NCBI GenBank assembly: GCA_964554645.1
Contig: CAZKPK010000001.1
Span: 3,697 to 67,696 of the forward strand
Origin: an uncultured Candidatus Saccharibacteria bacterium
GTDB taxonomy: Bacteria; Patescibacteriota; Minisyncoccia; Phycocordibacterales; UBA9973
Direction of reading: 5' to 3'
DNA: 64,000 nt
Shown: piece by piece, positions 8,946-57,579 of the stretch
Position numbering within the stretch: position 1 is the stretch's first letter
Layout: every line of letters starts with the position of its first letter
Translations under genes and position numbers: made by a program
Notes under the pieces: generated by a model
What the model saw: the letters and a program-made list of their open reading frames with translations, nothing else
Told to the model about the DNA's origin: nothing
The model's database searches: none

Positions 8946-9026
8946 ACTATATTTCAACATGAGGAAGCGATATAAACAGAAAAGTAATAATCTAGATTAA
9001 AATAACTATATGCGCAATAGGCAACC

Positions 9027-9112
9027 ATCCACCCCGTCTCGACTAAAGTCGAGTCACCCCTCAAGAGGGGAACGTCCACCCCGACGCAAGCGTCACCCCT
9101 CAAGAGGGGAAT
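9027..9112 (+). repeat. family A repeat, tandem pair
   Basis: Two units: ATCCACCCCG-TCTCGACTAAAGTCGAGT-CACCCCTCAAGAGGGGAA and TCCACCCCG-ACGCAAGCGT-CACCCCTCAAGAGGGGAAT. Confidence 0.9.
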
Positions 9113-9162
9113 GGAATCCAAAATCTCTATATCCATATTGGGAAATTCCTAAAAACAAAATT

Positions 9163-9522
9163 TTGACTGATAGGGCAAAAGATTTAAGAAAGGCGGGTAA
9201 TTTATCTGAAGTTATTTTTTGGCAAACTTTTAAAGATAAAAATAAATTAGGTTTTGATATTGATAGACAAGTTATAATCGGCAATTATATTGTAGATTTT
9301 TTTATTCCCGAACTAGGTTTAGTTTTTGAGATAGACGGTTCAAGTCATGACGATAAGCTTGAATATGATGCTGAACGAGATGCTTTTATGAGAGATTTAA
9401 ATTTAAAAGTGGTTAGAATTCTTGATATTGATGTGAAGAAGAATCTAGGAAGTGTCTATCAATTTGTATTAGAAACAATACATAAAAGAAAAAAGGATGC
9501 ATTTGAATTATTCCCCTCTTGA
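9163..9522 (+). CDS. DUF559 (Vsr-like/PD-(D/E)XK) endonuclease-domain protein
   Basis: LRKAGNLSEVIFWQ..GFDIDRQVIIGNYIVDFFIPELGLVFEIDGSSH matches the DUF559 core. TTG 9163 is my start guess; ORF upstream to 9010 is repeat-encoded. The TGA stop lies inside the right-hand repeat. Confidence 0.75.
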   Translation: MTDRAKDLRKAGNLSEVIFWQTFKDKNKLGFDIDRQVIIGNYIVDFFIPELGLVFEIDGSSHDDKLEYDAERDAFMRDLNLKVVRILDIDVKKNLGSVYQFVLETIHKRKKDAFELFPS

Positions 9523-9596
9523 GGGGTACTCCGACTTCAGTCGGAGTGGGGTGGATGTATGAGGGGTGACCCGATGACCATCGGGTCGGGGTGGAT
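9510..9596 (-). repeat. family A repeat, tandem pair in inverted orientation
   Basis: ATTCCCCTCTTGAGGGGTA-CTCCGACTTCAGTCGGAG-TGGGGTGGAT + GTATGAGGGGTG-ACCCGATGACCATCGGGT-CGGGGTGGAT; reverse complement of family A consensus. Confidence 0.9.
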
Positions 9597-15957: not shown

Positions 15958-16059
15958 GATTCTCCTCTTGAGGAGTACTCCGACTCAGGTCGGAGGGAGG
16001 TGGATGAGTTTTTCCACCCCGTCCTTTGATTACAAAGTCCACCCCTCAAGAGGGGAATC
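15958..16059. repeat. family A inverted doublet (REPIN-like)
   Basis: Reverse unit GATTCTCCTCTTGAGGAG..GGGAGGTGGAT (15958-16005) faces forward unit TCCACCCC..CCCCTCAAGAGGGGAATC (16013-16059); 18-nt terminal inverted repeats, 2 mismatches. Confidence 0.9.
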
Positions 16060-16134
16060 GCTACCCCTGTGGATAACTTTCTTGCATGTTTTTTTGCCTC
16101 TATATGATATAATTACTCCATTAGAAAAATATTT

Positions 16135-16162
16135 CAGCCATAGGCTGATCCGCCTTAGGCGG
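16135..16162 (-). repeat. family D double-hairpin repeat
   Basis: CAGCCATAGGCTGATCCGCCTTAGGCGG = reverse complement of CCGCC-TAA-GGCGG-AT-CAGCC-TAT-GGCTG. Confidence 0.8.
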
Positions 16163-16203
16163 AAAAAATAAGTCGAAAATATATTATTATTAGTTAATTA
16201 TTA

Positions 16204-16241: not shown

Positions 16242-16706
16242 ATGAAGAATTTTAAAAAAGGTTTTACATTAATTGAACTCTTGGTCGTAGTAGCCATCAT
16301 CGGCATTTTGGCGTCGGTTGTCTTGGCGTCGTTGAATACAGCAAGGACAAAAGGTAAGGACGGAGCTGCACAAACATCCATAGCTAGTGTTAAAGCTCAA
16401 GCTGAAATTTTCTTTACTACTAATTATGGGACTGCGGGTACTATAACTGACGCATCTTCAGCTGGAACTACAAGTGCTTGTGATCAGGCCCAAGTTATAA
16501 ATATTCTTAAGTCTGTAAAAGGAAATACTGGTAGTACCGCAACTTGTGCAGTTGGTCTAGATGGTGCAACATGGGTAGCATGGAGTCAACTAGCTTCACA
16601 GACCTCACCAGCAAACTTCTGTGCGGATAGTACAGGTTTTAGTGGTTCTCGTACAGTTGCTCCTACGTCAGCAGTTACTGCTGCTGTGAGTTGTGCATCT
16701 AGTTAG
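16242..16706 (+). CDS. type IV major pilin (prepilin N-terminal methylation domain)
   Basis: 154 aa; MKNFKKG|FTLIELLVVVAIIGILASVVL class III signal; paired C-terminal Cys. Confidence 0.93.
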   Translation: MKNFKKGFTLIELLVVVAIIGILASVVLASLNTARTKGKDGAAQTSIASVKAQAEIFFTTNYGTAGTITDASSAGTTSACDQAQVINILKSVKGNTGSTATCAVGLDGATWVAWSQLASQTSPANFCADSTGFSGSRTVAPTSAVTAAVSCASS

Positions 16707-17955: not shown

Positions 17956-18783
17956 ATGCTTTTTTTGCTTTTGGTTATTTTTTTCATCCTCGGTCTCATC
18001 ATCGGCAGCTTTTTGAATGTGATAATTTATCGGCTGAATACAGCCAGATCGTTCGGAGGCAGGAGCGCTTGTATGTCTTGTCAGAACAGGCTTTGCTGGT
18101 ATGAACTTATCCCACTCTTTAGTTTTTTGGGTCTTGGGGGGAGATGCCGAAGCTGTAAAACTAAAATTTCTATCCAATATCCGTTGGTGGAACTTGCGAC
18201 TGGCTTGATTTTCGCCTTGTTATTTTTTAAACTGCAAGATGTTTTTTATACTAATTCTCTGGTTTTTTTCATCACTTATGATTACTTTGCTTTATTGTTT
18301 TCACTTCTTCTAGTCATTGCCACTTATGATCTCAAACATAAAATAATTCCGGATATTTTGTCTTTTGCTTTTGGCGCGCTTGCTTTTATTGGCCTATTTT
18401 TCTTCTCCGCCCAAGGCGGATCCGCCTTTGGCGGAAATAATATTTTTTACCCCCATTTTCCCACAGTTTTAGAATTTTTGTCGGGTGGATTAATAGCGTT
18501 ACCTTTTGCTTTTTTTTGGCTTGTATCTTCCGGTCGGTGGATGGGGTTAGGGGATGCCAAGCTTGCGCTCGGCATTGGGTGGTTTTTAGGCATATCTTCT
18601 GCGCTCTCGGCTTTAGTGGTTGCTTTCTGGTCTGGAGCCATCGTCGGAATAATTCTCGTTATTTTTTCCAGAAATAGAAAAATTGGCAGGCTGGGGATGA
18701 AAAGCGAAATTCCTTTTGCCCCTTTCCTAGTTTTTGGCGCGTTTCTAGCTTTTATTTTTGGATTGAATCTTTTTGGAATTTAA
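17956..18783 (+). CDS. pilD: prepilin peptidase (A24 family)
   Basis: 275 aa; CMSCQNRL..CRSCKTKI zinc motif, YPLVE, GLGDAKL active-site Asp. Confidence 0.93.
   Translation: MLFLLLVIFFILGLIIGSFLNVIIYRLNTARSFGGRSACMSCQNRLCWYELIPLFSFLGLGGRCRSCKTKISIQYPLVELATGLIFALLFFKLQDVFYTNSLVFFITYDYFALLFSLLLVIATYDLKHKIIPDILSFAFGALAFIGLFFFSAQGGSAFGGNNIFYPHFPTVLEFLSGGLIALPFAFFWLVSSGRWMGLGDAKLALGIGWFLGISSALSALVVAFWSGAIVGIILVIFSRNRKIGRLGMKSEIPFAPFLVFGAFLAFIFGLNLFGI
18407..18434 (+). repeat. family D-like double hairpin inside pilD ORF
   Basis: CCGCC-CAA-GGCGG-AT-CCGCC-TTT-GGCGG, translated SAQGGSAFGG. Confidence 0.75.
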
Positions 18784-20593: not shown

Positions 20594-23222
<2,629 letters not shown>

Positions 23223-39948: not shown

Positions 39949-42117
39949 ATGCGACTCAAAACTCTTGAACTGAATGGCTTTAAATCTTTTTCTCAAAAAA
40001 CAGTTTTGGAGTTTGATAACAGTATTGTCTGCATTGTCGGTCCGAACGGTTCAGGAAAATCAAATGTAGTAGAAGCCATCCGTTTTGTCTTGGGCGAGCA
40101 ATCAATGAAATCAATGCGTGGCAAGACGGGCGTTGATCTCATTTTCAAAGGATCCAAAAATTTGCCTAGGAAAACGCGGGCGGCCGTTACAATATATTTC
40201 AATAACTCTGACAAAATTTTTAGGCTTGAGGATGGTGTAGGAGAAAACATGAATTTGAATTATGACACTATCAGCATAACGCGCCAGGTTTTCCCTGACG
40301 GACTCAATAAATATATTTTAAATGGGACAGAAGTGCGCCTGAAAGATATTCACCACCTTCTGGCCTCGGTTAACATAGGTTCTTCCGGGCATCATATTAT
40401 TTCCCAGGGCGAGGCTGATAGGATTCTGAATGCCAGCCCAAAAGATAGGAAGGAAATGGTGGAAGATGCGTTGGGGCTCAAAATTTACCAGTATAAAATA
40501 AAAGAATCTGAGAGAAAACTGGAAAGAACAGAGAACAATATGAAAGAAGTGACCATGTTGCGCAGAGAAAATGCTCCGCACCTTAATTTCTTAAAGAAAC
40601 AAGTAGAAAAATTTGAAAGGGCGAAAGAAATGCAGGCAGAGTTAGCAATTCTCTACCAAGAATATTTAAAAAAAGAAAACGTTTATTTAAATAAAGAGAA
40701 GGAAAATTTTCTCGCAGAAAGAAATAAAATAGCCAAAGAACTGGAAAGTGTTGTTAGTAAAATTTCTCTGACTGAAGACAGTGGTTCAGCTAAGGGAAAT
40801 CAAAAAATAGAGGAGCTAAGAACTATTGAGCAAAAATTAAATGAAATCCGCAGCGCCAAGGGAGAAATGAACAGAAAACTGGGAAGAATTGAAGGGATGA
40901 TAGAGGCCAAACAGAATAGAGTTAAAATTTCTGGCCGGTGTCCCATGTGTGGCAGAGAGTGGGGGGAAATGAGCAAAGAACAACTCGAAAACAGAGAAAA
41001 CAATCAGCAAGAATTAGCAGAATTGAAAAATTCTCAAGCTGGTATTCTAACGCAGGTGCAGGAAATGGAAAATAAAGAGAAAGAGCTTGTCGATCAGATA
41101 GAAGAATTGAAGCAGGAAATAAATAAACAGATGGAAACCTTGCGCGATTTGGAGCGGGAGAAGTTCAGCTTTAAGGTTAGGCATCAGGAATTGTCTTCAG
41201 CTTTGGAACTGGTGCGCATCAAAGAAACGAATTTAAAAGGCAGGCTTGAAGCCTTTGAAAGTGAGATCAAAGAAGGTGTAGCGCTTATAGGTCAAGAGAT
41301 TTTGTCCTATCCGCCCGAGGCGGACCAGCCTTGGGCTGGTAAAGAAATAGATGAAACAAGGCAAGCTGAGTTAAAGAAAAAAATTGAGCGTTTGAAAATA
41401 AAATTGGAAGATGCCGGTCTTGGCGGCGGAGCGGAAGTTTTGAAAGAATTCAAAGAAGTTTCGGAGAGGGATAATTTTTTAGCGAAAGAAATGGAAGATT
41501 TATCTAAAAGCATGGTGGCGTTGCAAAAGCTCATAGAAGATTTAAAGGAAAAGATAGACACAGAATTCAAGGAGGGTATCAAAAAAATAAACAAAGAATT
41601 TCAAGAATTTTTCTCCTTAATGTTTGGCGGGGGGACGGGATCTCTTGCGATAGTGGTGGAGAATAAAAAGAGACGAAGTATGAGCGAAGAAGAGGCTAAA
41701 TTCAGCGAAGCTGAATCGCCCGACGCTTCTGAAGAAGCGTTTAGGGAAGAGATTGTTTTTGAACAGGGCATAGAAATAAATGTTTCACTTCCTCATAAAA
41801 AGGTCAAAGAGCTTCAGGCGCTCTCGGGCGGGGAGCGATCACTCACTTCTATTGCTCTTCTCTTTGCGATGTCGCAAGTGAATCCTCCGCCATTTTTGGT
41901 GCTTGATGAAACCGATGCTGCGCTGGACGAAGCCAACTCGCGCAAATATGGAGATATGTTGGAAAAACTTTCCAAACATTCTCAGCTTATTGTTGTTACC
42001 CACAACCGCGAGACGATGTCCCGCGCCGGCGTGCTCTATGGCGTAACGATAGGCGGAAATGACACCTCCAAGCTTCTTTCTGTTAAATTCGAAGAAGCCA
42101 CCCAAATTGCGAAATAA
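39949..42117 (+). CDS. smc: SMC-family chromosome segregation ATPase, short form with central CxxC instead of a hinge
   Basis: 722 aa; N-head LNGFKSF..GPNGSGKSNVVEAIRFVLGEQS; C-head LSGGERSLTSIALLFA..LVLDETDAALD; CPMCGREW at residues 331-338; no hinge-like segment seen. Confidence 0.9.
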   Translation: MRLKTLELNGFKSFSQKTVLEFDNSIVCIVGPNGSGKSNVVEAIRFVLGEQSMKSMRGKTGVDLIFKGSKNLPRKTRAAVTIYFNNSDKIFRLEDGVGENMNLNYDTISITRQVFPDGLNKYILNGTEVRLKDIHHLLASVNIGSSGHHIISQGEADRILNASPKDRKEMVEDALGLKIYQYKIKESERKLERTENNMKEVTMLRRENAPHLNFLKKQVEKFERAKEMQAELAILYQEYLKKENVYLNKEKENFLAERNKIAKELESVVSKISLTEDSGSAKGNQKIEELRTIEQKLNEIRSAKGEMNRKLGRIEGMIEAKQNRVKISGRCPMCGREWGEMSKEQLENRENNQQELAELKNSQAGILTQVQEMENKEKELVDQIEELKQEINKQMETLRDLEREKFSFKVRHQELSSALELVRIKETNLKGRLEAFESEIKEGVALIGQEILSYPPEADQPWAGKEIDETRQAELKKKIERLKIKLEDAGLGGGAEVLKEFKEVSERDNFLAKEMEDLSKSMVALQKLIEDLKEKIDTEFKEGIKKINKEFQEFFSLMFGGGTGSLAIVVENKKRRSMSEEEAKFSEAESPDASEEAFREEIVFEQGIEINVSLPHKKVKELQALSGGERSLTSIALLFAMSQVNPPPFLVLDETDAALDEANSRKYGDMLEKLSKHSQLIVVTHNRETMSRAGVLYGVTIGGNDTSKLLSVKFEEATQIAK
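41311..41339 (+). repeat. family D double hairpin inside smc
   Basis: CCGCC-CGA-GGCGG-AC-CAGCC-TTG-GGCTG; translated PPEADQPWAG. Confidence 0.8.
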
Positions 42118-44966: not shown

Positions 44967-45287
44967 ATGTTGAAAATAAGATTACAGAGAATAGGTAGAA
45001 AGAACGATCCGGCGTTTCGGGTAGTTTTAACCGATTCCAAAAACAGCACCAAGAGCGGTAAATTTTTGGAAATACTCGGCACTTATAATCCAAAGGCGAC
45101 AGACAAGAAGTTGAGAGCAAATTTTACCAATGACAGGACAAAATATTGGCTATCCAAAGGGGTAAAACTTTCGGACACAATGCATAACTTTTTAGTTAAC
45201 GACAAAATCATAGAAGGTAAGAAGATAAATGTATTGCCAAAGAAAATGCCAACAGTTAAAAGAAAGGAGTTGAAAATGAAGAAGTAA
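44967..45287 (+). CDS. rpsP: 30S ribosomal protein S16
   Basis: 106 aa; MLKIRLQRIGRKNDPAFRVV. Confidence 0.95.
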   Translation: MLKIRLQRIGRKNDPAFRVVLTDSKNSTKSGKFLEILGTYNPKATDKKLRANFTNDRTKYWLSKGVKLSDTMHNFLVNDKIIEGKKINVLPKKMPTVKRKELKMKK

Positions 45288-45403
45288 TTATATACAATAC
45301 AGATATGGAGCAGTGCATCCGGTCGTAAAACTGCTAAACATTTCCACCTGAGGTGGATTCGCCTTTGGAGGAAAAAATTAAAAGTAATTTACTGAAATAA
45401 CAT

Positions 45404-45745
45404 ATGCAAGACGCTGATAAGATATTTTTGGAATATGTGGTGAAAGCTCTTGTTGACAATCCGAACGATGTGAAGATTGAAAGGACTGTTGATGAGATGG
45501 GCGTGCTTATCTCGCTGACTGTGAATCCGGCCGATATGGGCAAAATTATCGGAAGAATGGGGAACACCGCTAAAGCTATTCGTACTTTGTTGCGAATTAT
45601 CGGTATGAAAAATAACGCCCGGGTGAACTTGAAAATCAACGAACCAGAAGGAAGCACCAGAGGACAAGGGTCCATAACCTCTCCGAGTGTTCCAAGTTCG
45701 CTGAAGACAGTAGATCAGGCAATGGAAGACCTGAAAGGAATTTAA
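45404..45745 (+). CDS. KH-domain RNA-binding protein (YlqC/UPF0109-like)
   Basis: 113 aa; GKIIGRMGNTAKAIRTLL (GxxG loop); conserved position after rpsP. Confidence 0.85.
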   Translation: MQDADKIFLEYVVKALVDNPNDVKIERTVDEMGVLISLTVNPADMGKIIGRMGNTAKAIRTLLRIIGMKNNARVNLKINEPEGSTRGQGSITSPSVPSSLKTVDQAMEDLKGI

Positions 45746-53100: not shown

Positions 53101-53791
53101 TCCCGCCTCTGGCGGGACAGGTGTAAAATCTGCTCACTCCCGCGATATTTCAGGATCCGGCGGGGAAAAAATAATCAAAGTGCTTTCAGATCTGGAAGAT
53201 AGTAAGGCGGGGGCTAAAAACGAAATAGAATATCTTGTTCCGTTTCACAGAATGCCTACCGTTAAAGCAGGTGATCACATAAAGAAAGGGGATCTCCTAA
53301 CTGACGGGTCAGCGGATATTGCTGAAATGTTTAAATTTGGCAACAAGGAATTAGTCGAAAATTATATAATTCGGGAAATAAACAAAGTTTATGAATTGCA
53401 AAGCGCTTCAATTTCCAGAAAGCATACGGAAATAATTATCCGCCAAATGTTTTCGCGCCGAAAAATAAAAGACGCGGGCGACACTAATTTTTCCATCGGC
53501 GATATTGTTGAGAATACCGCATTTATAGAAGAAAATCAGAGAGTTGCGCGCTTGGCGGTTAAACCGCCAAGCGCGCTTGGCGGTTTAACCGCCAAAGCAG
53601 AAACAGTGGTGCTTGGTATCACGGAAGTGTCGCTTCGCACTAAAAGTTGGCTCTCGGCGGCTTCGTTCCAAAACACCAATCGCGTTCTTATTGAAAACGC
53701 GGTCAAGGGCGGGGTAGATTCTTTGAGAGGGTTAAAAGAGAATGTTATAATCGGTAGGTTAATTCCGGCTGGAACTGGATTTAAAAAATAA
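50120..53791 (+). CDS. rpoC: DNA-directed RNA polymerase subunit beta'
   Basis: 1223 aa; Zn CYCGKY..CEKCGV, NADFDGDQMAV, GEAVGIIAAQAIGEPGTQLTLRTFH. Confidence 0.98.
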   Translation: MKTLNTTEFNSIALRLASPEQIKEWSFGEVTKPETINYRTGRSERGGLFDEKIFGPEKDYECYCGKYRRIRYKDIICEKCGVEVTRSIVRRERMGHIELGTPVSHIWFLRGVPSRMSILLNISVTDLEKVIYFAGYIITKVHEDEKEAVIANLDKEYKSKLKNATDDDTREKLKNLLSITKKEIGEIYEGKVLNEISFHHYSLKYGTCFEANIGAEAIYSIFKNLDLDKLKTHTEKMIEKASVAEKEKLQKRLSLIRAMTYAGIRPEWMFLTVFPVIPPVLRPMVALDGGRHATSDLNDLYRRVINRNNRLKKLKEINAPDVILRNEKRIIQEAVDALIDNSIAKQNDSAAMSQSQKRPLKSLSDNLKSKQGLFRQNLLGKRVDYSGRSVIVVGPELKLNQCGLPKHMALELFRPFVISKILQAELAFNIRGANKLIEERGGEVWAMLEEVIAGKYVLLNRAPTLHRLGIQAFNPILIEGNAIQVHPLVCQAFNADFDGDQMAVYVPLLEEAQWEAKEFMASNKNLLKPQNGDPIVHPRMDMVLGSFWMTKSIEGEVGEGKYFSRPNTAVTAYDYGIISMRAKIKVLPMDKPKYKKFNGEIFETTVGRIIFNSILPDDFHYVNDEMTQDRLSSLLDELIMHSGVENIPHILDTIKAFGFKYSTISGTTWGLDNVSVSSEKPKIIAEGKKLEKEIISQWQEGLLSEEEKYQKVIEVWTHMKKNLEKVLPKTVDKHSSTYDIFTSKARGTMSSLMQMTGMIGLIQNNQGKTLEFPIIPCYQEGLSPIEYFVITHGARKGASDTALNTAKAGYLTRRLVDVAQDVVITEVDCGTKEGRIVTKENISGIEIPLSKNIRGRVLAGDLKNKNGKVVYKKGFLVTKEEAYNIEGAGFTEVFVRSPLTCRTVHGLCVMCYGLDLGRNRLVELGEAVGIIAAQAIGEPGTQLTLRTFHAGGVAGTDITTGLPRVEEIFERRIPKNPAIISETDGEVIEIKIKDPASGGTGVKSAHSRDISGSGGEKIIKVLSDLEDSKAGAKNEIEYLVPFHRMPTVKAGDHIKKGDLLTDGSADIAEMFKFGNKELVENYIIREINKVYELQSASISRKHTEIIIRQMFSRRKIKDAGDTNFSIGDIVENTAFIEENQRVARLAVKPPSALGGLTAKAETVVLGITEVSLRTKSWLSAASFQNTNRVLIENAVKGGVDSLRGLKENVIIGRLIPAGTGFKK
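53102..53116. repeat. GC hairpin within a GC-rich segment of rpoC
   Basis: CCCGCC-TCT-GGCGGG; surrounding 53095-53170 encodes DPASGGTGVKSAHSRDISGSGGE. Confidence 0.55.
53546..53597. repeat. family C palindrome doublet inside rpoC
   Basis: GCGCGCTTGGCGGTT-A-AACCGCCAAGCGCGC (31-nt perfect palindrome) + CTTGGCGGTTTAACCGCCAAAG; translated LAVKPPSALGGLTAK. Confidence 0.92.
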
Positions 53792-55761: not shown

Positions 55762-57579
55762 ATGTCCTCATCAGTTGACCAAATTAAATCACGAATAGAC
55801 ATCCTCTCGCTTGTAAGCTCTTATATCAAGCTAGATAAGGCAGGAGCGAGTTGGAAAGCCAAATGTCCGTTTCATAATGAAAAAACACCCTCATTTTTTG
55901 TCTCGCCGGAACGGGGGAGTTATTATTGTTTTGGTTGCGAGGCTTCGGGAGACATTTTCACTTTTGTGGAAGAATTTGAAGGGTTGGATTTTAAGGGCGC
56001 TCTGAAACTTTTAGCAGATCGCGCAGGAGTGGTGCTTGAAGTTTACAGTCAGGAAAAGAAAGAAGTAGGTGAATTGATTTTTTTGGAGAAAGAAAAATTA
56101 TATCGAGTGATGGAAGAAACCACGAAGTTTTTTGAAAATAATTTTCCGCCCAAGGCGGATCAGCCTCGAGCTGAAAAGGAAATAAAAGAAGCATTAGAGT
56201 ATCTGAAATCGCGTGGTTTAACCGATAAAACTATCAAAGATTTTAGAATAGGTTATGCCATTCTTGATTGGCGAACACTTTATGATTACCTAAAGTCTAA
56301 GAATTTTTCTGATGAAGAAATAGAGCTTGCCGGATTGGCCAAGAAACCGGAAGACAAGACAAAAGCAATGTATGACCGCTTTCGCGGACGCATAATGTTC
56401 CCAATTTCCGATTCCAGTGGCCGGATTATTGCTTTTTCGGGAAGAATTCTGATTGATGATGGAAAATCGGCGAAGTATTTAAATAGTCCGGAAACCCCGA
56501 TATTTAATAAATCTTCCGTGCTTTTTGGCATAGATAAAGCAAAAGATTCCATCCGCAAAAATAACTTTTCCATTTTAGTTGAAGGGCAGATGGATTTAGT
56601 TTTATCGCATCAGGTCGGTTTTAAAAATACTGTTGCATCTTCTGGCACGGCGATGAATGATTCGATAATATCTAAAGAGAACATTATAAATAATTTAGGG
56701 CTTGTTTGCAGATTATCTAAAAATATCGTTCTGGCTTACGATGCTGACAAAGCGGGAGTGAATGCTTCCAATCGTTTTGCAAAAATCGCATTATCTTTAG
56801 GGATGGATGTGAAAGTGGCCAGTATGAGAGAGGGTGTCGATCCAGCCGATATTATCTCCAAAGAGGGTAAAGATGCGTGGCATCAAGCAATCCGAGATTC
56901 AAAACATTTTATTCCATTTATGCTAGAGCGAATCTTGAAAGATGCATCTGGTGATGGAAGAAAAGTGGGCAGAGGAATTCAAGAACGTCTTTTGCCTTTT
57001 CTGAAGGATTTAGACAGCGCGATGGAAAAATCCCATTTTATCAAACTTATTAGCGATAAATCCGGCATAGCTGAAAAAGCTCTAATGGAGGATTTGCAGA
57101 AAGTAGAGTCAGAATTGAAATATGAAACAGAAGAAATCAAAATCGCGAAAGAAAATGTGGACAAAAAATTGAGAAAAGATCCGATTGAACGCAGACTGCT
57201 GGGAATAGCTTTTTGGCAGGAAAGTGTTAAAAGTAAGATCGTAGATCCAGAAATCATTTTTGCGAAACTAGGTAAAGTGAAGGAATATTATAAAGACAAA
57301 AAAGAAGATTTAATTTTCGAAGCGGAAGCTTTTTATTCCAATAGCGAAAACTTACAAAAAGATGTGCGAGAGATGCTACTTTCGATTGAAGAAGAATATC
57401 TTAATGAGGAGCTTGTTAAGAAAATGATAGAACTTAAAAATCTGAAAGATGAAAAGGCTAAATCCAATGTAATTGGATCGCCCGACACTTCAGCAAAAGT
57501 GTTTAGGGACGAAGCAGAAATTTTAAAAAGAATAAATGAAATAAATAAGAGGAAAGAAGAAATTAAAAATAGTCGCTAA
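55762..57579 (+). CDS. dnaG: DNA primase
   Basis: 605 aa; Zn ribbon [45 protein letters not shown]. Confidence 0.96.
56146..56173 (+). repeat. family D double hairpin inside dnaG
   Basis: CCGCC-CAA-GGCGG-AT-CAGCC-TCG-AGCTG; translated [10 protein letters not shown]. Confidence 0.8.

What the first reader, a model, noticed from the sequence alone, without database searches (positions are those of the whole stretch)
56146..56173. Family D double hairpin gives DnaG and SMC the same PP(K/E)ADQP(R/W)A motif
dnaG 56146-56173 (CCGCCCAAGGCGGATCAGCCTCGAGCTG) reads [13 protein letters not shown]. smc 41311-41339 (CCGCCCGAGGCGGACCAGCCTTGGGCTGG) reads PPEADQPWAGKEI. An intergenic reverse copy lies at 16135-16162 upstream of the pilin gene. 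The element is two adjacent 5-bp-stem hairpins. The loop bases vary (CAA/CGA/TAA and TCG/TTG/TAT) while the stems are kept.
Basis: seen in the sequence. Interest (0 to 1): 0.6.

Follow-up and report, generated by a model that had tools for sequence, protein, structure and literature searches.

The report
Mobile 30-base double-hairpin inside genes
A 30-base GC-rich DNA element that folds into two small hairpins has been pasted in-frame into the primase, SMC and prepilin-peptidase genes of this Nomurabacteria genome. The same element occurs across many bacterial phyla, where it sits next to tiny GIY-YIG nuclease genes lodged at tRNA genes, an association that may mark an undescribed kind of selfish DNA.

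Summary
The window holds four good copies and one degenerate copy of a 30-nt unit made of two 15-nt hairpins (6-bp stem, 3-nt loop). Shuffled sequence gives none. The shared DnaG/SMC peptide is a by-product. Orthologs of DnaG, SMC and PilD mostly lack the segment, and across 129 copies from other genomes the unit is read in 5 of 6 frames, so conservation is in the DNA. The exact pattern occurs in more than 120 stretches of uncultured bacteria from many phyla. Base 16 and base 30 covary perfectly (T-A 85, C-G 37, C-A 0), and wobble pairs are almost absent. That points to a constraint on both DNA strands.

The unexpected part is the context. About 16% of copies lie inside tRNA-like fragments, and 13 of 120 loci have an ~80-aa GIY-YIG nuclease gene (UPF0213/Slx1-like) directly beside the element. 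In the reverse test, 45 of 92 GIY-YIG genes fetched by protein similarity alone carry such a double hairpin 5-94 nt (median 19) upstream of the ATG. It sits in a duplicated tRNA fragment, and an intact tRNA usually follows the gene.

Best reading: the copies in dnaG, smc and pilD are orphan copies of the cis element of these cassettes. That the nuclease mobilises them is inferred. I found no description of this in the searchable literature.

The parts
56145..56174 (+). Double-hairpin copy in dnaG: TCCGCC-CAA-GGCGGA / TCAGCC-TCG-AGCTGA. It is read as (F)[10 protein letters not shown] in the linker between the zinc ribbon and the primase core. The second stem has one mismatch.
   Evidence: It is an exact 30-nt insertion relative to the empty site in L125 (AAT CTG|AAA GAA).
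41310..41339 (+). Double-hairpin copy in the short SMC-like gene: TCCGCC-CGA-GGCGGA / CCAGCC-TTG-GGCTGG (the C-G variant). It is read as (Y)PPEADQPWAG in a hypervariable segment.
   Evidence: It is absent from the closest orthologs P0121 and P0122. L218 carries an independent sibling copy 9 nt away in another frame.
16134..16163 (-). Intact intergenic copy, 79 nt upstream of the pilin gene (16242-16706). The + strand reads TCAGCC-ATA-GGCTGA / TCCGCC-TTA-GGCGGA.
18406..18435 (.). Copy with two CCGCC stems (TCCGCC-CAA-GGCGGA / TCCGCC-TTT-GGCGGA), an almost perfect 30-bp palindrome, inside the prepilin peptidase gene. It is read in phase as SAQGGSAFGG.
   Evidence: The L098 ortholog (63% identity) has a 9-residue gap exactly here.
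45343..45372 (+). Degenerate copy TCCACC-TGA-GGTGGA / TTCGCC-TTT-GGAGGA, lying between the ORFs at 44967-45287 and 45404-45745. These are likely rpsP and a KH-domain gene, judged by synteny with L219.
53102..53116 (+). Single 15-nt half unit CCCGCC-TCT-GGCGGG inside rpoC. It lies in a stretch of RpoC that has no counterpart in the three orthologs L124-L126 in the alignment window inspected.
   Evidence: CCCGCC/GGCGGG is one of the stem variants seen next to GIY-YIG genes.
55762..57579 (+). dnaG (DNA primase, 605 aa), host gene of the copy at 56145.
39949..42117 (+). Short SMC-like ATPase gene (722 aa), host gene of the copy at 41310.
17956..18783 (+). Prepilin peptidase (PilD, A24 family) gene, host of the copy at 18406.

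Best explanation
The 'PP(K/E)ADQP(R/W)A motif' is the translation of a 30-bp selfish DNA element. The element is two abutting 15-nt hairpins of the form NNNGCC-NNA-GGCNNN followed by NNNGCC-TNN-GGCNNN. It was inserted, without an obvious target duplication, at short TY|RA sites.

Inside genes it survives only where it is stop-free and lands in a tolerant linker. Its length, a multiple of three, keeps the frame. It acts at the DNA level as a pair of small cruciform-forming palindromes, and neither a peptide nor an RNA function is indicated.

Its full form is the left-junction element of a small cassette found in many phyla. The cassette reads: [5' piece of a tRNA] - [double hairpin] - [a few more tRNA bases] - 5 to 35 nt - [~80-aa stand-alone GIY-YIG nuclease of the UPF0213/Slx1 type] - [intact tRNA gene]. 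The copies in dnaG, smc, pilD and the pilin upstream region are orphan copies.

What is shown:
- each coding copy is an insertion relative to orthologs;
- the sequence is conserved at nucleotide level in five reading frames;
- the two-hairpin pairing is supported by covariation;
- the element occurs in many phyla;
- the element, the GIY-YIG gene and the tRNA are tightly and reciprocally adjacent.

What is inferred: the structure-selective GIY-YIG nuclease recognises or cuts the extruded hairpins (or hairpin-like tRNA-gene DNA), and repair of those breaks copies the element, and sometimes the nuclease gene, into new sites.
For: **Insertion.**
- DnaG shows a clean 10-aa indel; 7 of 120 orthologs carry it, in intact or decayed form.
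- The DNA of filled and empty DnaG sites differs by exactly 30 nt.
- PilD of L098 lacks the segment.
- The SMC segment is absent from the nearest orthologs. L218 has an independent sibling copy 9 nt away in a different frame.

**Nucleotide-level conservation.** 44 of 129 copies lie in open frames of at least 150 codons. They are read in 5 of 6 frames. Frame 0 is used only by the C-G variant, which removes the TGA stop.

**Structure.**
- Positions 16 and 30 pair as T-A in 85 copies, C-G in 37, T-G in 2 and C-A in 0.
- In 43 GIY-adjacent units anchored only on the inner GCC/GGC, all six outer pairs are 100% Watson-Crick. They use several pair types and no wobble pairs, against 44-83% pairing in shuffles.
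- The predicted single-stranded DNA folds are stable.

**Spread.** More than 120 stretches of genome contigs in many phyla carry the exact pattern, and so do 11 viral contigs.

**Partner gene.**
- The largest ORF cluster next to the copies is a GIY-YIG protein (PF01541, E about 1e-17). It is present in 15 of 120 loci and within 150 nt of the element in 13.
- Reverse test on 80 loci fetched by protein similarity only: 33 of 80 have this stem family within 150 nt of the gene.
- 45 of 92 genes have a double hairpin of the same design 5-94 nt (median 19) upstream of the ATG. A same-design scan of Markov-simulated sequence gave about 1 per 64 kb, so I estimate roughly 0.2 by chance in the ~13 kb examined.
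- 57 of 92 genes have a same-strand tRNA beginning between 40 nt before and 120 nt after the stop codon.
- 20 of 129 copies sit in tRNA-like sequence that becomes contiguous when 30 nt are deleted.
- L220, from Ca. Paceibacterota, has the same stems as the window's smc copy, 22 nt before a GIY-YIG gene that is followed by tRNA-Ser.
- The partner's nearest solved relatives are UPF0213 proteins and the SLX1 structure-specific nuclease (PMC7017083).
Against: - No GIY-YIG gene lies in the 64-kb window, and the rest of the source genome could not be read. A partner in this organism is therefore unproven.
- About 85% of copies found by DNA pattern are solo.
- GIY-YIG enzymes hydrolyse DNA and do not ligate it, so an insertion chemistry has to be borrowed from host repair. 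No cleavage or mobility data exist.
- The adjacency could instead mean that the hairpin is the nuclease's target or landing site, its operator, or a marker of the cassette junction, with something else mobilising it.
- The intact tRNA downstream of the cassette still contains the uninterrupted site. A simple picture in which the insertion protects against self-cleavage does not explain this.
- The DnaG carriers are scattered on a poorly resolved NJ tree. This could reflect repeated insertion, precise loss or recombination, and I could not tell which.
Confidence: 0.55

Rival explanations
1. The double hairpin is not mobilised by the GIY-YIG nuclease. It is instead the nuclease's recognition or landing site, its operator, or a repair scar left at the cassette junction. 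Solo copies would arise by another route, such as microhomology-templated repair or template switching onto existing copies.
For: - The hairpin always sits at the cassette's left junction, 5-35 nt before the ATG, whichever tRNA position was hit.
- The nuclease is only about 80 aa and has no DNA-binding domain.
- Loops differ between copies while stems are fixed.
Against: - Solo copies in dnaG, smc and pilD have no tRNA-like flanks, so the unit reaches new sites on its own.
- Several hairpins can occupy one pseudo-tRNA (L081).
- A pure operator role does not explain copies inside unrelated coding genes.
Confidence: 0.2
2. It is a REP/REPIN-like or IS200/IS605-derived miniature element, moved as single-stranded DNA by a Y1 (HUH) transposase such as a RAYT.
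For: - The element is a short GC-rich hairpin with no target duplication and a short target motif.
- A Y1_Tnp gene lies near dnaG in a related genome (L124 13611-14288).
Against: - No Y1 transposase family is enriched next to the 120 copies. The only enriched nuclease family is GIY-YIG.
- No GC-rich hairpin was detected within about 2.9 kb of the L124 Y1_Tnp gene.
- The element has no GTAG or CGTC tag.
- A third of copies lie in long open frames.
- The stems are conserved across phyla, whereas, to my knowledge, REP sequences differ between lineages.
Confidence: 0.08
3. It is a host-beneficial structured motif, for example an RNA hairpin that controls mRNA stability or translation, a priming or pausing signal, or a useful peptide module. 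In that case it would be kept by selection, not spread as selfish DNA.
For: - Stems are kept intact in L124 and L126 although the DnaG proteins are only 77-78% identical to the window's.
- The unit sits upstream of genes in several places, including 79 nt upstream of the pilin gene in the window.
Against: - The unit is read in five frames and in both orientations.
- It is absent from most orthologs.
- It decays in some lineages, for example SLKTNQSQAE and LLKADQPGTE.
- There are almost no G-T wobble pairs, which does not fit an RNA-only constraint.
- No T-run follows the hairpins, so it is not an intrinsic terminator.
- No Rfam family other than tRNA and tmRNA matched in the six element-bearing loci searched.
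Confidence: 0.07
4. It is a chance similarity, or an assembly or sequencing artefact.
For: All genome hits listed come from metagenome-assembled or single-cell genomes.
Against: - Shuffles give 0 matches.
- The same DnaG protein occurs in independent assemblies, SRR12113422 and SRR12113424.
- Loops vary with compensated stems.
- The copy is inherited across orthologs, with decay.
Confidence: 0.01

Closest known systems
REP / REPIN elements with their RAYT (Y1) transposase
   Same: Both are short GC-rich palindromic repeats scattered through a genome, with a single small nuclease-type gene flanked by the same hairpins. Examples here are L041, where the gene lies between two inverted copies, and L090, with the order element-gene-element-gene.
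   Different: - The partner here is a GIY-YIG (Slx1/UPF0213-type) nuclease, not an HUH tyrosine transposase.
- The element has no GTAG or CGTC tag.
- A third of copies lie inside long open frames.
- The unit is two tandem hairpins, not an inverted REP doublet.
- The stems are shared across phyla.
- The cassette is tied to tRNA genes.
Rickettsia palindromic elements (RPE)
   Same: Both are palindromic repeats inserted in-frame into essential protein-coding genes of a small, AT-rich genome, adding a peptide segment that orthologs lack.
   Different: From my own knowledge, RPEs are about 100-150 bp, are confined to Rickettsia and have no known partner enzyme. This unit is 30 bp, is cross-phylum and is linked to a nuclease gene.
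Mitochondrial GC clusters (yeast) and double-hairpin elements (Allomyces; Paquin et al. 2000, recalled from memory; cited in papers listed)
   Same: Both are very short GC-rich units in AT-rich genomes that fold into one or two hairpins. Both are found in intergenic DNA, structural RNA genes and coding genes, and both are thought to be mobile.
   Different: Those elements are in organelles, not bacteria. No sequence relationship was tested. No tRNA-linked GIY-YIG cassette is known for them.
Free-standing GIY-YIG homing endonucleases (e.g. phage T4 SegB in the tRNA gene region, PMC2330249)
   Same: Both are GIY-YIG nuclease genes lodged among or next to tRNA genes, and both behave as selfish inserts.
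   Different: Seg enzymes carry a C-terminal DNA-binding domain and recognise long asymmetric sites. The proteins here are a bare catalytic domain of about 80 aa, closest to UPF0213 and SLX1. They come with a palindromic double hairpin and a duplicated tRNA fragment.
SLX1 / YhbQ / YazA family of structure-selective nucleases (PMC7017083)
   Same: The partner protein matches UPF0213 structures (1zg2, 1ywl) and SLX1 nuclease domains. From my own knowledge, SLX1 cuts branched and stem-loop DNA, which fits a hairpin substrate.
   Different: No activity, substrate or mobile-element role has been shown for the bacterial stand-alone proteins. They also lack the SLX1 zinc-finger domain and an SLX4-type partner.

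Membership tests
REP/REPIN-RAYT | A short GC-rich imperfect palindrome repeated many times in a genome | tested here: met
   The window has 4-5 copies in 64 kb, with 0 expected. The predicted hairpins are stable.
REP/REPIN-RAYT | Extragenic location | tested here: not met
   Three of the five window copies lie in coding genes. 44 of 129 copies elsewhere lie in open frames of at least 150 codons.
REP/REPIN-RAYT | A conserved GTAG (or CGTC) tag at one end (title and abstract of PMC3733652, listed) | tested here: not met
   The unit starts with TCCGCC or YCAGCC. The flanks are T-T/C ... R-A, with no GTAG or CGTC.
REP/REPIN-RAYT | An associated Y1 (RAYT) transposase gene flanked by the repeats | tested here: not met
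   No Y1 cluster was found among ORFs in the 120 element-bearing loci. No GC-rich hairpin was detected within about 2.9 kb of the Y1_Tnp gene in L124.
MITE | Terminal inverted repeats plus a target-site duplication | tested here: not met
   Filled and empty dnaG sites, and tRNA sites, differ by exactly 30 nt with no duplicated bases. The unit is two hairpins, not two terminal inverted repeats around a core.
Rickettsia palindromic elements | In-frame insertion into ORFs that adds a peptide segment absent from orthologs | tested here: met
   Shown for DnaG, SMC and PilD.
Rickettsia palindromic elements | Size of about 100-150 bp and sequence relationship to RPE-1 through RPE-8 | tested here: not met
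   The unit is 30 bp. Sequence similarity to RPEs was not tested.
Intrinsic terminator | A GC-rich hairpin followed by a T-run | tested here: not met
   The downstream flank is A/G-rich in both orientations (positions +31 to +33).
GIY-YIG homing endonuclease cassette | A GIY-YIG catalytic domain in the adjacent ORF | tested here: met
   PF01541 with E from 2.5e-18 to 3.4e-16. The conserved Y, G, R, H and E columns are present.
GIY-YIG homing endonuclease cassette | A separate sequence-specific DNA-binding domain | tested here: not met
   The proteins are about 79-86 aa and consist of the catalytic domain only.
GIY-YIG homing endonuclease cassette | Cleavage of the empty allele followed by copying of the gene into it | not testable with these tools
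   This needs biochemistry or genetics. Only the architecture was seen: a duplicated tRNA piece and an intact tRNA.
IS200/IS605 | Subterminal hairpins at both ends of an element that encodes TnpA (Y1), with or without TnpB | tested here: not met
   There is no such ORF between or beside the copies.

The most novel reading that the evidence does not exclude
The double hairpin and the ~80-aa Slx1-like GIY-YIG nuclease together form a previously unrecognised class of bacterial mobile element. The autonomous form lodges in tRNA genes while regenerating an intact tRNA. Its 30-bp cruciform-forming end is mobilised in trans as the smallest known non-autonomous element. That end spreads across phyla, including Patescibacteria, Omnitrophota, Ignavibacteria, Bdellovibrionota-like lineages, Planctomycetota and phage contigs, and writes 10-residue inserts into essential proteins.
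Probability: 0.35. Interest if true: 0.85.

Novelty: new variant of a known kind. Interest (0 to 1): 0.75.

Why it matters
- **Annotation.** Recurrent 10-residue 'motifs' such as PPxADQPxA, SAxGGPAxGW and QPxADPPxA in proteins from uncultured bacteria would be footprints of one DNA element and not functional peptides. That matters for annotation, for alignments and for phylogenies built on CPR marker genes.
- **An orphan protein family.** The stand-alone UPF0213/YhbQ-type GIY-YIG proteins have solved structures but no known role. This would give them a concrete, testable substrate, a defined 30-bp double hairpin, and a biological context at tRNA genes.
- **Mobile-element biology.** It would add a REP/RAYT-like partnership built on a different nuclease fold, and it would show how a 30-bp unit can keep identical stems across phyla.
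- **Possible uses.** The element is a ready marker of permissive insertion sites in essential proteins, and a structure-specific nuclease with a compact site could be a useful reagent.

Tried and rejected
- **Intact tRNA genes as hosts.** ARAGORN, after in-silico deletion of the unit, recovered a whole tRNA only in L040. Reading the loci showed that most are fragments or pseudo-copies lying beside an intact tRNA.
- **An outer helix enclosing both hairpins (three-way junction).** The flanking positions show no pairing beyond what base composition gives. Rejected.
- **One long 15-bp hairpin in place of two short ones.** The alternative pairings hold in only 49-70% of units, against 100% for the two-hairpin model. 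Rejected.
- **Rfam.** A search of six element-bearing loci returned only ordinary tRNA and tmRNA.
- **Short repeated words beside some copies (GAAAGT, TAGAATTT).** I suspected iterons. In the one case read in full (L215) the copy lies in low-complexity coding sequence. Not pursued further.
- **The search for related loci with a 12-sequence GIY-YIG alignment.** This failed because no block was conserved enough. It succeeded with a 5-sequence subfamily, so the reverse test covers one subfamily only.
- **Literature.** Eight searches found no paper linking GIY-YIG genes, tRNA genes and palindromic repeats. Absence from this library does not prove novelty.
- **Viral contigs.** The 11 hits are solo copies with no GIY-YIG gene nearby, so phage carriage is possible but unproven as a vector.
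- **NJ tree of DnaG.** Its internal branches are too short to decide between a single insertion and several.
Full report
**1. The observation**

With up to two mismatches its pattern matches at four places (five strand hits; the near-palindromic 18407 copy counts twice), against none in 100 dinucleotide-preserving shuffles.

- The matches are at 16135(-), 18407, 41311(+) and 56146(+). The 18407 copy is new, and both its stems are CCGCC.
- A hairpin scan added a degenerate copy at 45343-45372 and a single half unit at 53102-53116 in rpoC.
- Each hairpin has a 6-bp stem once the flanking T...A or C...G is included. The unit is therefore 2 x 15 = 30 nt.
- The dnaG copy has one stem mismatch.
- The window is about 38% G+C, whereas the units are 60-77% G+C.
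- As single-stranded DNA the copies fold at -10.6 to -13.3 kcal/mol, z = -2.9 to -5.0.

The window comes from contig JACPLP010000008.1 of a groundwater Candidatus Nomurabacteria MAG. The identical DnaG protein is also present in two independent read-set assemblies, so this is not an assembly artefact.

**2. The coding copies are insertions**

- **DnaG.** Among the 120 closest orthologs, about 113 read ...FFEN NL|KEN..., whereas the query reads ...[19 protein letters not shown]. This is a clean 10-residue indel in the linker between the zinc ribbon and the primase core.
  - Six other orthologs carry the segment, either intact or decayed: PPKADQPLAE, PPKADQPQAE, PPKADQLRAE, LLKADQPGTE, and SLKTNQSQAE (twice).
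  - At the DNA level the filled sites (window, L124, L126) and an empty site (L125: AAT CTG|AAA GAA) differ by exactly 30 nt, with no duplicated target bases.
  - In the intact orthologous copies only loop bases differ.
- **PilD.** The ortholog in L098 (63% identity) has a gap exactly where the window reads SAQGGSAFGG.
- **SMC.** The segment after GQEILSY is hypervariable.
  - PPEADQPWAG is present in only three orthologs and absent from the two closest ones.
  - L218 carries an independent sibling unit (TCCGCCCAAGGCGGA-CCCGCCTCGGGCGGG) 9 nt further along, in another frame, read as SAQGGPASGG.
  - The same SMC spot holds several other peptide inserts in other orthologs that look palindrome-encoded, so it is a tolerant landing zone.
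- **Phylogenetic pattern.** DnaG carriers are scattered on an NJ tree, but the tree is poorly resolved. I leave open whether this reflects repeated insertion, precise loss or recombination.

**3. It is a nucleotide element, not a peptide**

The exact 29-nt pattern occurs in more than 120 stretches of the species-representative genome collection.

- The stretches come from Patescibacteria, Omnitrophota, Ignavibacteria/Bacteroidota, Bdellovibrionales, Planctomycetota, Verrucomicrobiota, Elusimicrobia, a Leptospira MAG, proteobacterial MAGs and others. My estimate of the chance expectation is below about 2 for the whole collection.
- Every listed hit is from an uncultured organism (MAG or SAG).
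- Of 129 copies, 44 lie in open frames of at least 150 codons.
- Those 44 are read in five of the six frames. Read on the strand that begins TCCGCC they give SAxGGPAxGW, RxRRISLxL and PPxADQPxA. Read on the opposite strand they give SxRLIRLxR and QPxA(D/G)PPxA.
- Frame 0 is used only by the C...G variant, which turns the terminal TGA into TGG.

The shared DnaG/SMC peptide therefore reflects only that both copies happened to land in the same frame.

**4. Structure**

- In 124 unique copies, position 16 (Y in the pattern) and position 30 (outside the pattern) pair as T-A in 85, C-G in 37, T-G in 2 and C-A in 0.
- Loop 1 is NNA and loop 2 is TNN, which makes the whole unit quasi-dyad-symmetric.
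- The flanks prefer T-T/C before the unit and R-A after it, but they do not covary.
- I ran an unbiased test on units found next to GIY-YIG genes, anchored only on the inner GCC/GGC. All six outer pairs of both hairpins were 100% Watson-Crick in 43 unique sequences.
  - Several pair types were used: TCC, TCA, TGC, CTC, CCC, TGA, CCA, TTC and TCG triplets.
  - Shuffles gave 44-83% pairing, and the alternative single long hairpin gave 49-70%.
- G-T wobble pairs are almost absent. This suggests a constraint felt by both DNA strands, through a cruciform or a symmetric protein site, more than an RNA-only structure. This last point is an inference.

**5. Context: tRNA pieces and a GIY-YIG nuclease**

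Several copies interrupt tRNA-like sequence in the D-loop, anticodon loop, T-loop or nearby. Deleting exactly 30 nt makes the tRNA sequence contiguous in 20 of 129 copies. Most of these are fragments or pseudo-copies lying 50-100 nt from an intact copy of the same tRNA.

I clustered all ORFs from the 120 element-bearing loci.

- One family stood out: an ~80-aa protein starting MYYVYIL..., which matches Pfam GIY-YIG at E about 1e-17.
- It is present in 15 loci and lies within 150 nt of the element in 13.
- No transposase family was enriched.

For the reverse test I fetched 80 metagenome loci using GIY-YIG protein similarity only.

- 33 of the 80 loci have this stem family within 150 nt of the gene.
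- 45 of 92 genes have a double hairpin of the same 15+15 design 5-94 nt (median 19) upstream of the ATG. A same-design scan of Markov-simulated window sequence gave about 1 per 64 kb, so I estimate roughly 0.2 by chance.
- 57 of 92 genes have a same-strand tRNA beginning between 40 nt before and 120 nt after the stop codon. This is often tRNA-Ser, and the tRNA start often lies about 22 nt inside the called ORF.

The recurring layout is: [5' part of the tRNA] - [double hairpin] - [a few more tRNA bases] - short spacer - [GIY-YIG ORF] - [intact tRNA]. There are tandem arrays (L090, L128, L147) and one gene flanked by two inverted copies (L041).

Two examples come from the window's own broader lineage.

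- L220 (Ca. Paceibacterota) reads aacaaGGAGAGGT|TCCGCCCGAGGCGGACCAGCCTTAGGCTGG|GGCTGAGT, then 22 nt, then the ATG of an 81-aa GIY-YIG gene, then 3 nt, then tRNA-Ser(GCT). Its stems are identical to those of the window's smc copy.
- L222 shows the same plan with a TCGGCC stem.

The partner's closest solved relatives are the UPF0213 proteins 1zg2 and 1ywl, followed by SLX1, a structure-selective nuclease. [quoted passage not shown]

**6. How it most likely works**

Shown:
- the unit is a DNA-level insert exactly 30 nt long;
- it lands at TY|RA-like sites with no target duplication;
- it has inserted more than once into the same tolerant protein segments;
- it keeps two hairpins through compensated changes;
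- it occurs in many phyla;
- it is physically coupled to a tRNA-linked GIY-YIG gene.

Inferred:
- the bare GIY-YIG domain acts on the extruded hairpins, or on hairpin-prone tRNA-gene DNA;
- host repair of the resulting nicks or breaks copies the hairpin, and sometimes the whole cassette, into new places;
- copies in genes persist only if they are stop-free and sit in linkers. This would explain the frame pattern and the C-G variant.

The window itself has no GIY-YIG gene, and I could not read the rest of the genome. The dnaG, smc and pilD copies are therefore best called orphans. Some of their orthologous copies are decaying.

The main rival keeps the association but reverses the logic: the hairpin would be the nuclease's target, operator or junction scar, and something else would copy it. 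A Y1/RAYT mobiliser, a host-beneficial RNA or peptide role, and an artefact are each less well supported, for the reasons given under the rival explanations.

**7. Comparison with known systems and novelty**

- In behaviour the element resembles REP/REPIN-RAYT pairs, Rickettsia palindromic elements, and mitochondrial GC clusters or double-hairpin elements.
- It fails the defining tests for REP (extragenic location, GTAG/CGTC tag, Y1 partner), MITE (terminal inverted repeats and target duplication), RPE (size) and intrinsic terminators (T-run).
- The partner gene is a GIY-YIG nuclease but lacks the DNA-binding domain of classical homing endonucleases.
- Eight full-text searches found nothing that links GIY-YIG genes, tRNA genes and palindromic repeats. 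This is not proof of novelty.
- I rate the finding a new variant of a known kind: a miniature palindromic mobile element with a partner nuclease. There is a fair chance that the partnership defines a new class.

Noticed in passing
window 8420, 9057, 9096, 9513(-), 16042, 31060, 59555(-); ORF 9010-9522: A second hairpin family, CCACCCCTCAAGAGGGGAAT, has 7 copies. A DUF559 (Vsr-like endonuclease) ORF has two forward copies in its 5' end and one reverse copy at its stop. This could be another 'small nuclease gene plus its own hairpin' pair.
   Followed up: partly
window 9531, 15980, 59572: A third hairpin, (C)TCCGAC-TTCA-GTCGGAG, and its variants sit next to family-A hairpins at 9531 and 59572 (reverse copies) and about 50 nt from a forward copy at 15980. 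The pair looks like a composite repeat.
   Followed up: no
window 21357, 21767-21806 (ligA); 53554-53599 (rpoC): A 20-nt perfect palindrome, TTGGCGGTTTAACCGCCAAG, occurs singly and as tandem pairs inside the NAD-ligase and RpoC genes. In RpoC it replaces a variable segment (VARLAVKPPSALGGLTAKAE, where relatives read IEELHGKDAENK-QAKAE).
   Followed up: partly
window 53102-53116 (rpoC): A lone 15-nt half unit, CCCGCC-TCT-GGCGGG, lies in a stretch of RpoC (…KDPASGGTGVKSAHSRD) that is gapped in three orthologs in the alignment window inspected.
   Followed up: partly
SMC orthologs P0121-P0240, region aligned to window 41290-41370: The same SMC spot carries many other inserts that appear palindrome-encoded from the peptide sequence (the DNA was not read). 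Examples are EALLP..GSKAS, EVGLPP..GGSPTS, PQRRSA..., RNASHSDAGG. It looks like a hotspot for several hairpin families.
   Followed up: partly
DnaG orthologs P0007, P0008, P0033, P0102; window 56060-56090: Near the same DnaG linker position, other orthologs carry a different insert, NPEPE-QARYGAGK. A separate 4-aa 'GELI/GELV' indel is shared by the query and a few others.
   Followed up: no
L124 13611-14288 (-): A 225-aa Y1_Tnp (IS200-like) gene lies about 1.8 kb downstream of dnaG, just past rpoD, in a related Nomurabacteria genome. No GC-rich hairpin was detected within about 2.9 kb of it.
   Followed up: partly
L081 1950-2130; L040 6500-6640: L081 has a pseudo-tRNA-Ser with degenerate double hairpins in both the D-loop and the anticodon loop, plus a 3' tRNA fragment with one in the T-loop. 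L040 has a full-length tRNA-Ser(GGA) with the unit in its D-loop, next to an intact copy.
   Followed up: partly
L094 1400-1600; L053; L092; L120: Hairpin-bearing tRNA fragments lie beside an intact tRNA with no GIY-YIG gene detected in the fetched stretch (in L094 only about 60 nt separates them). These may be decayed or miniature forms of the cassette.
   Followed up: no
L207-L217 (IMG/VR viral contigs): Eleven stretches of viral contigs (10 contigs) carry solo copies. One lies inside an acidic low-complexity protein (L215). None has a GIY-YIG gene nearby.
   Followed up: partly
window 39949-42117: The SMC-like protein is only 722 aa, as are all 120 close relatives (687-752 aa). From my own knowledge that is much shorter than canonical bacterial SMC.
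   Followed up: no
L063 7080-7400 and L084 4700-5000: In these loci the GIY-YIG gene is followed by a tRNA-like sequence that ARAGORN did not call as an intact tRNA there. The continuation after the anticodon region is unusual and may be an intron or a disrupted gene.
   Followed up: no
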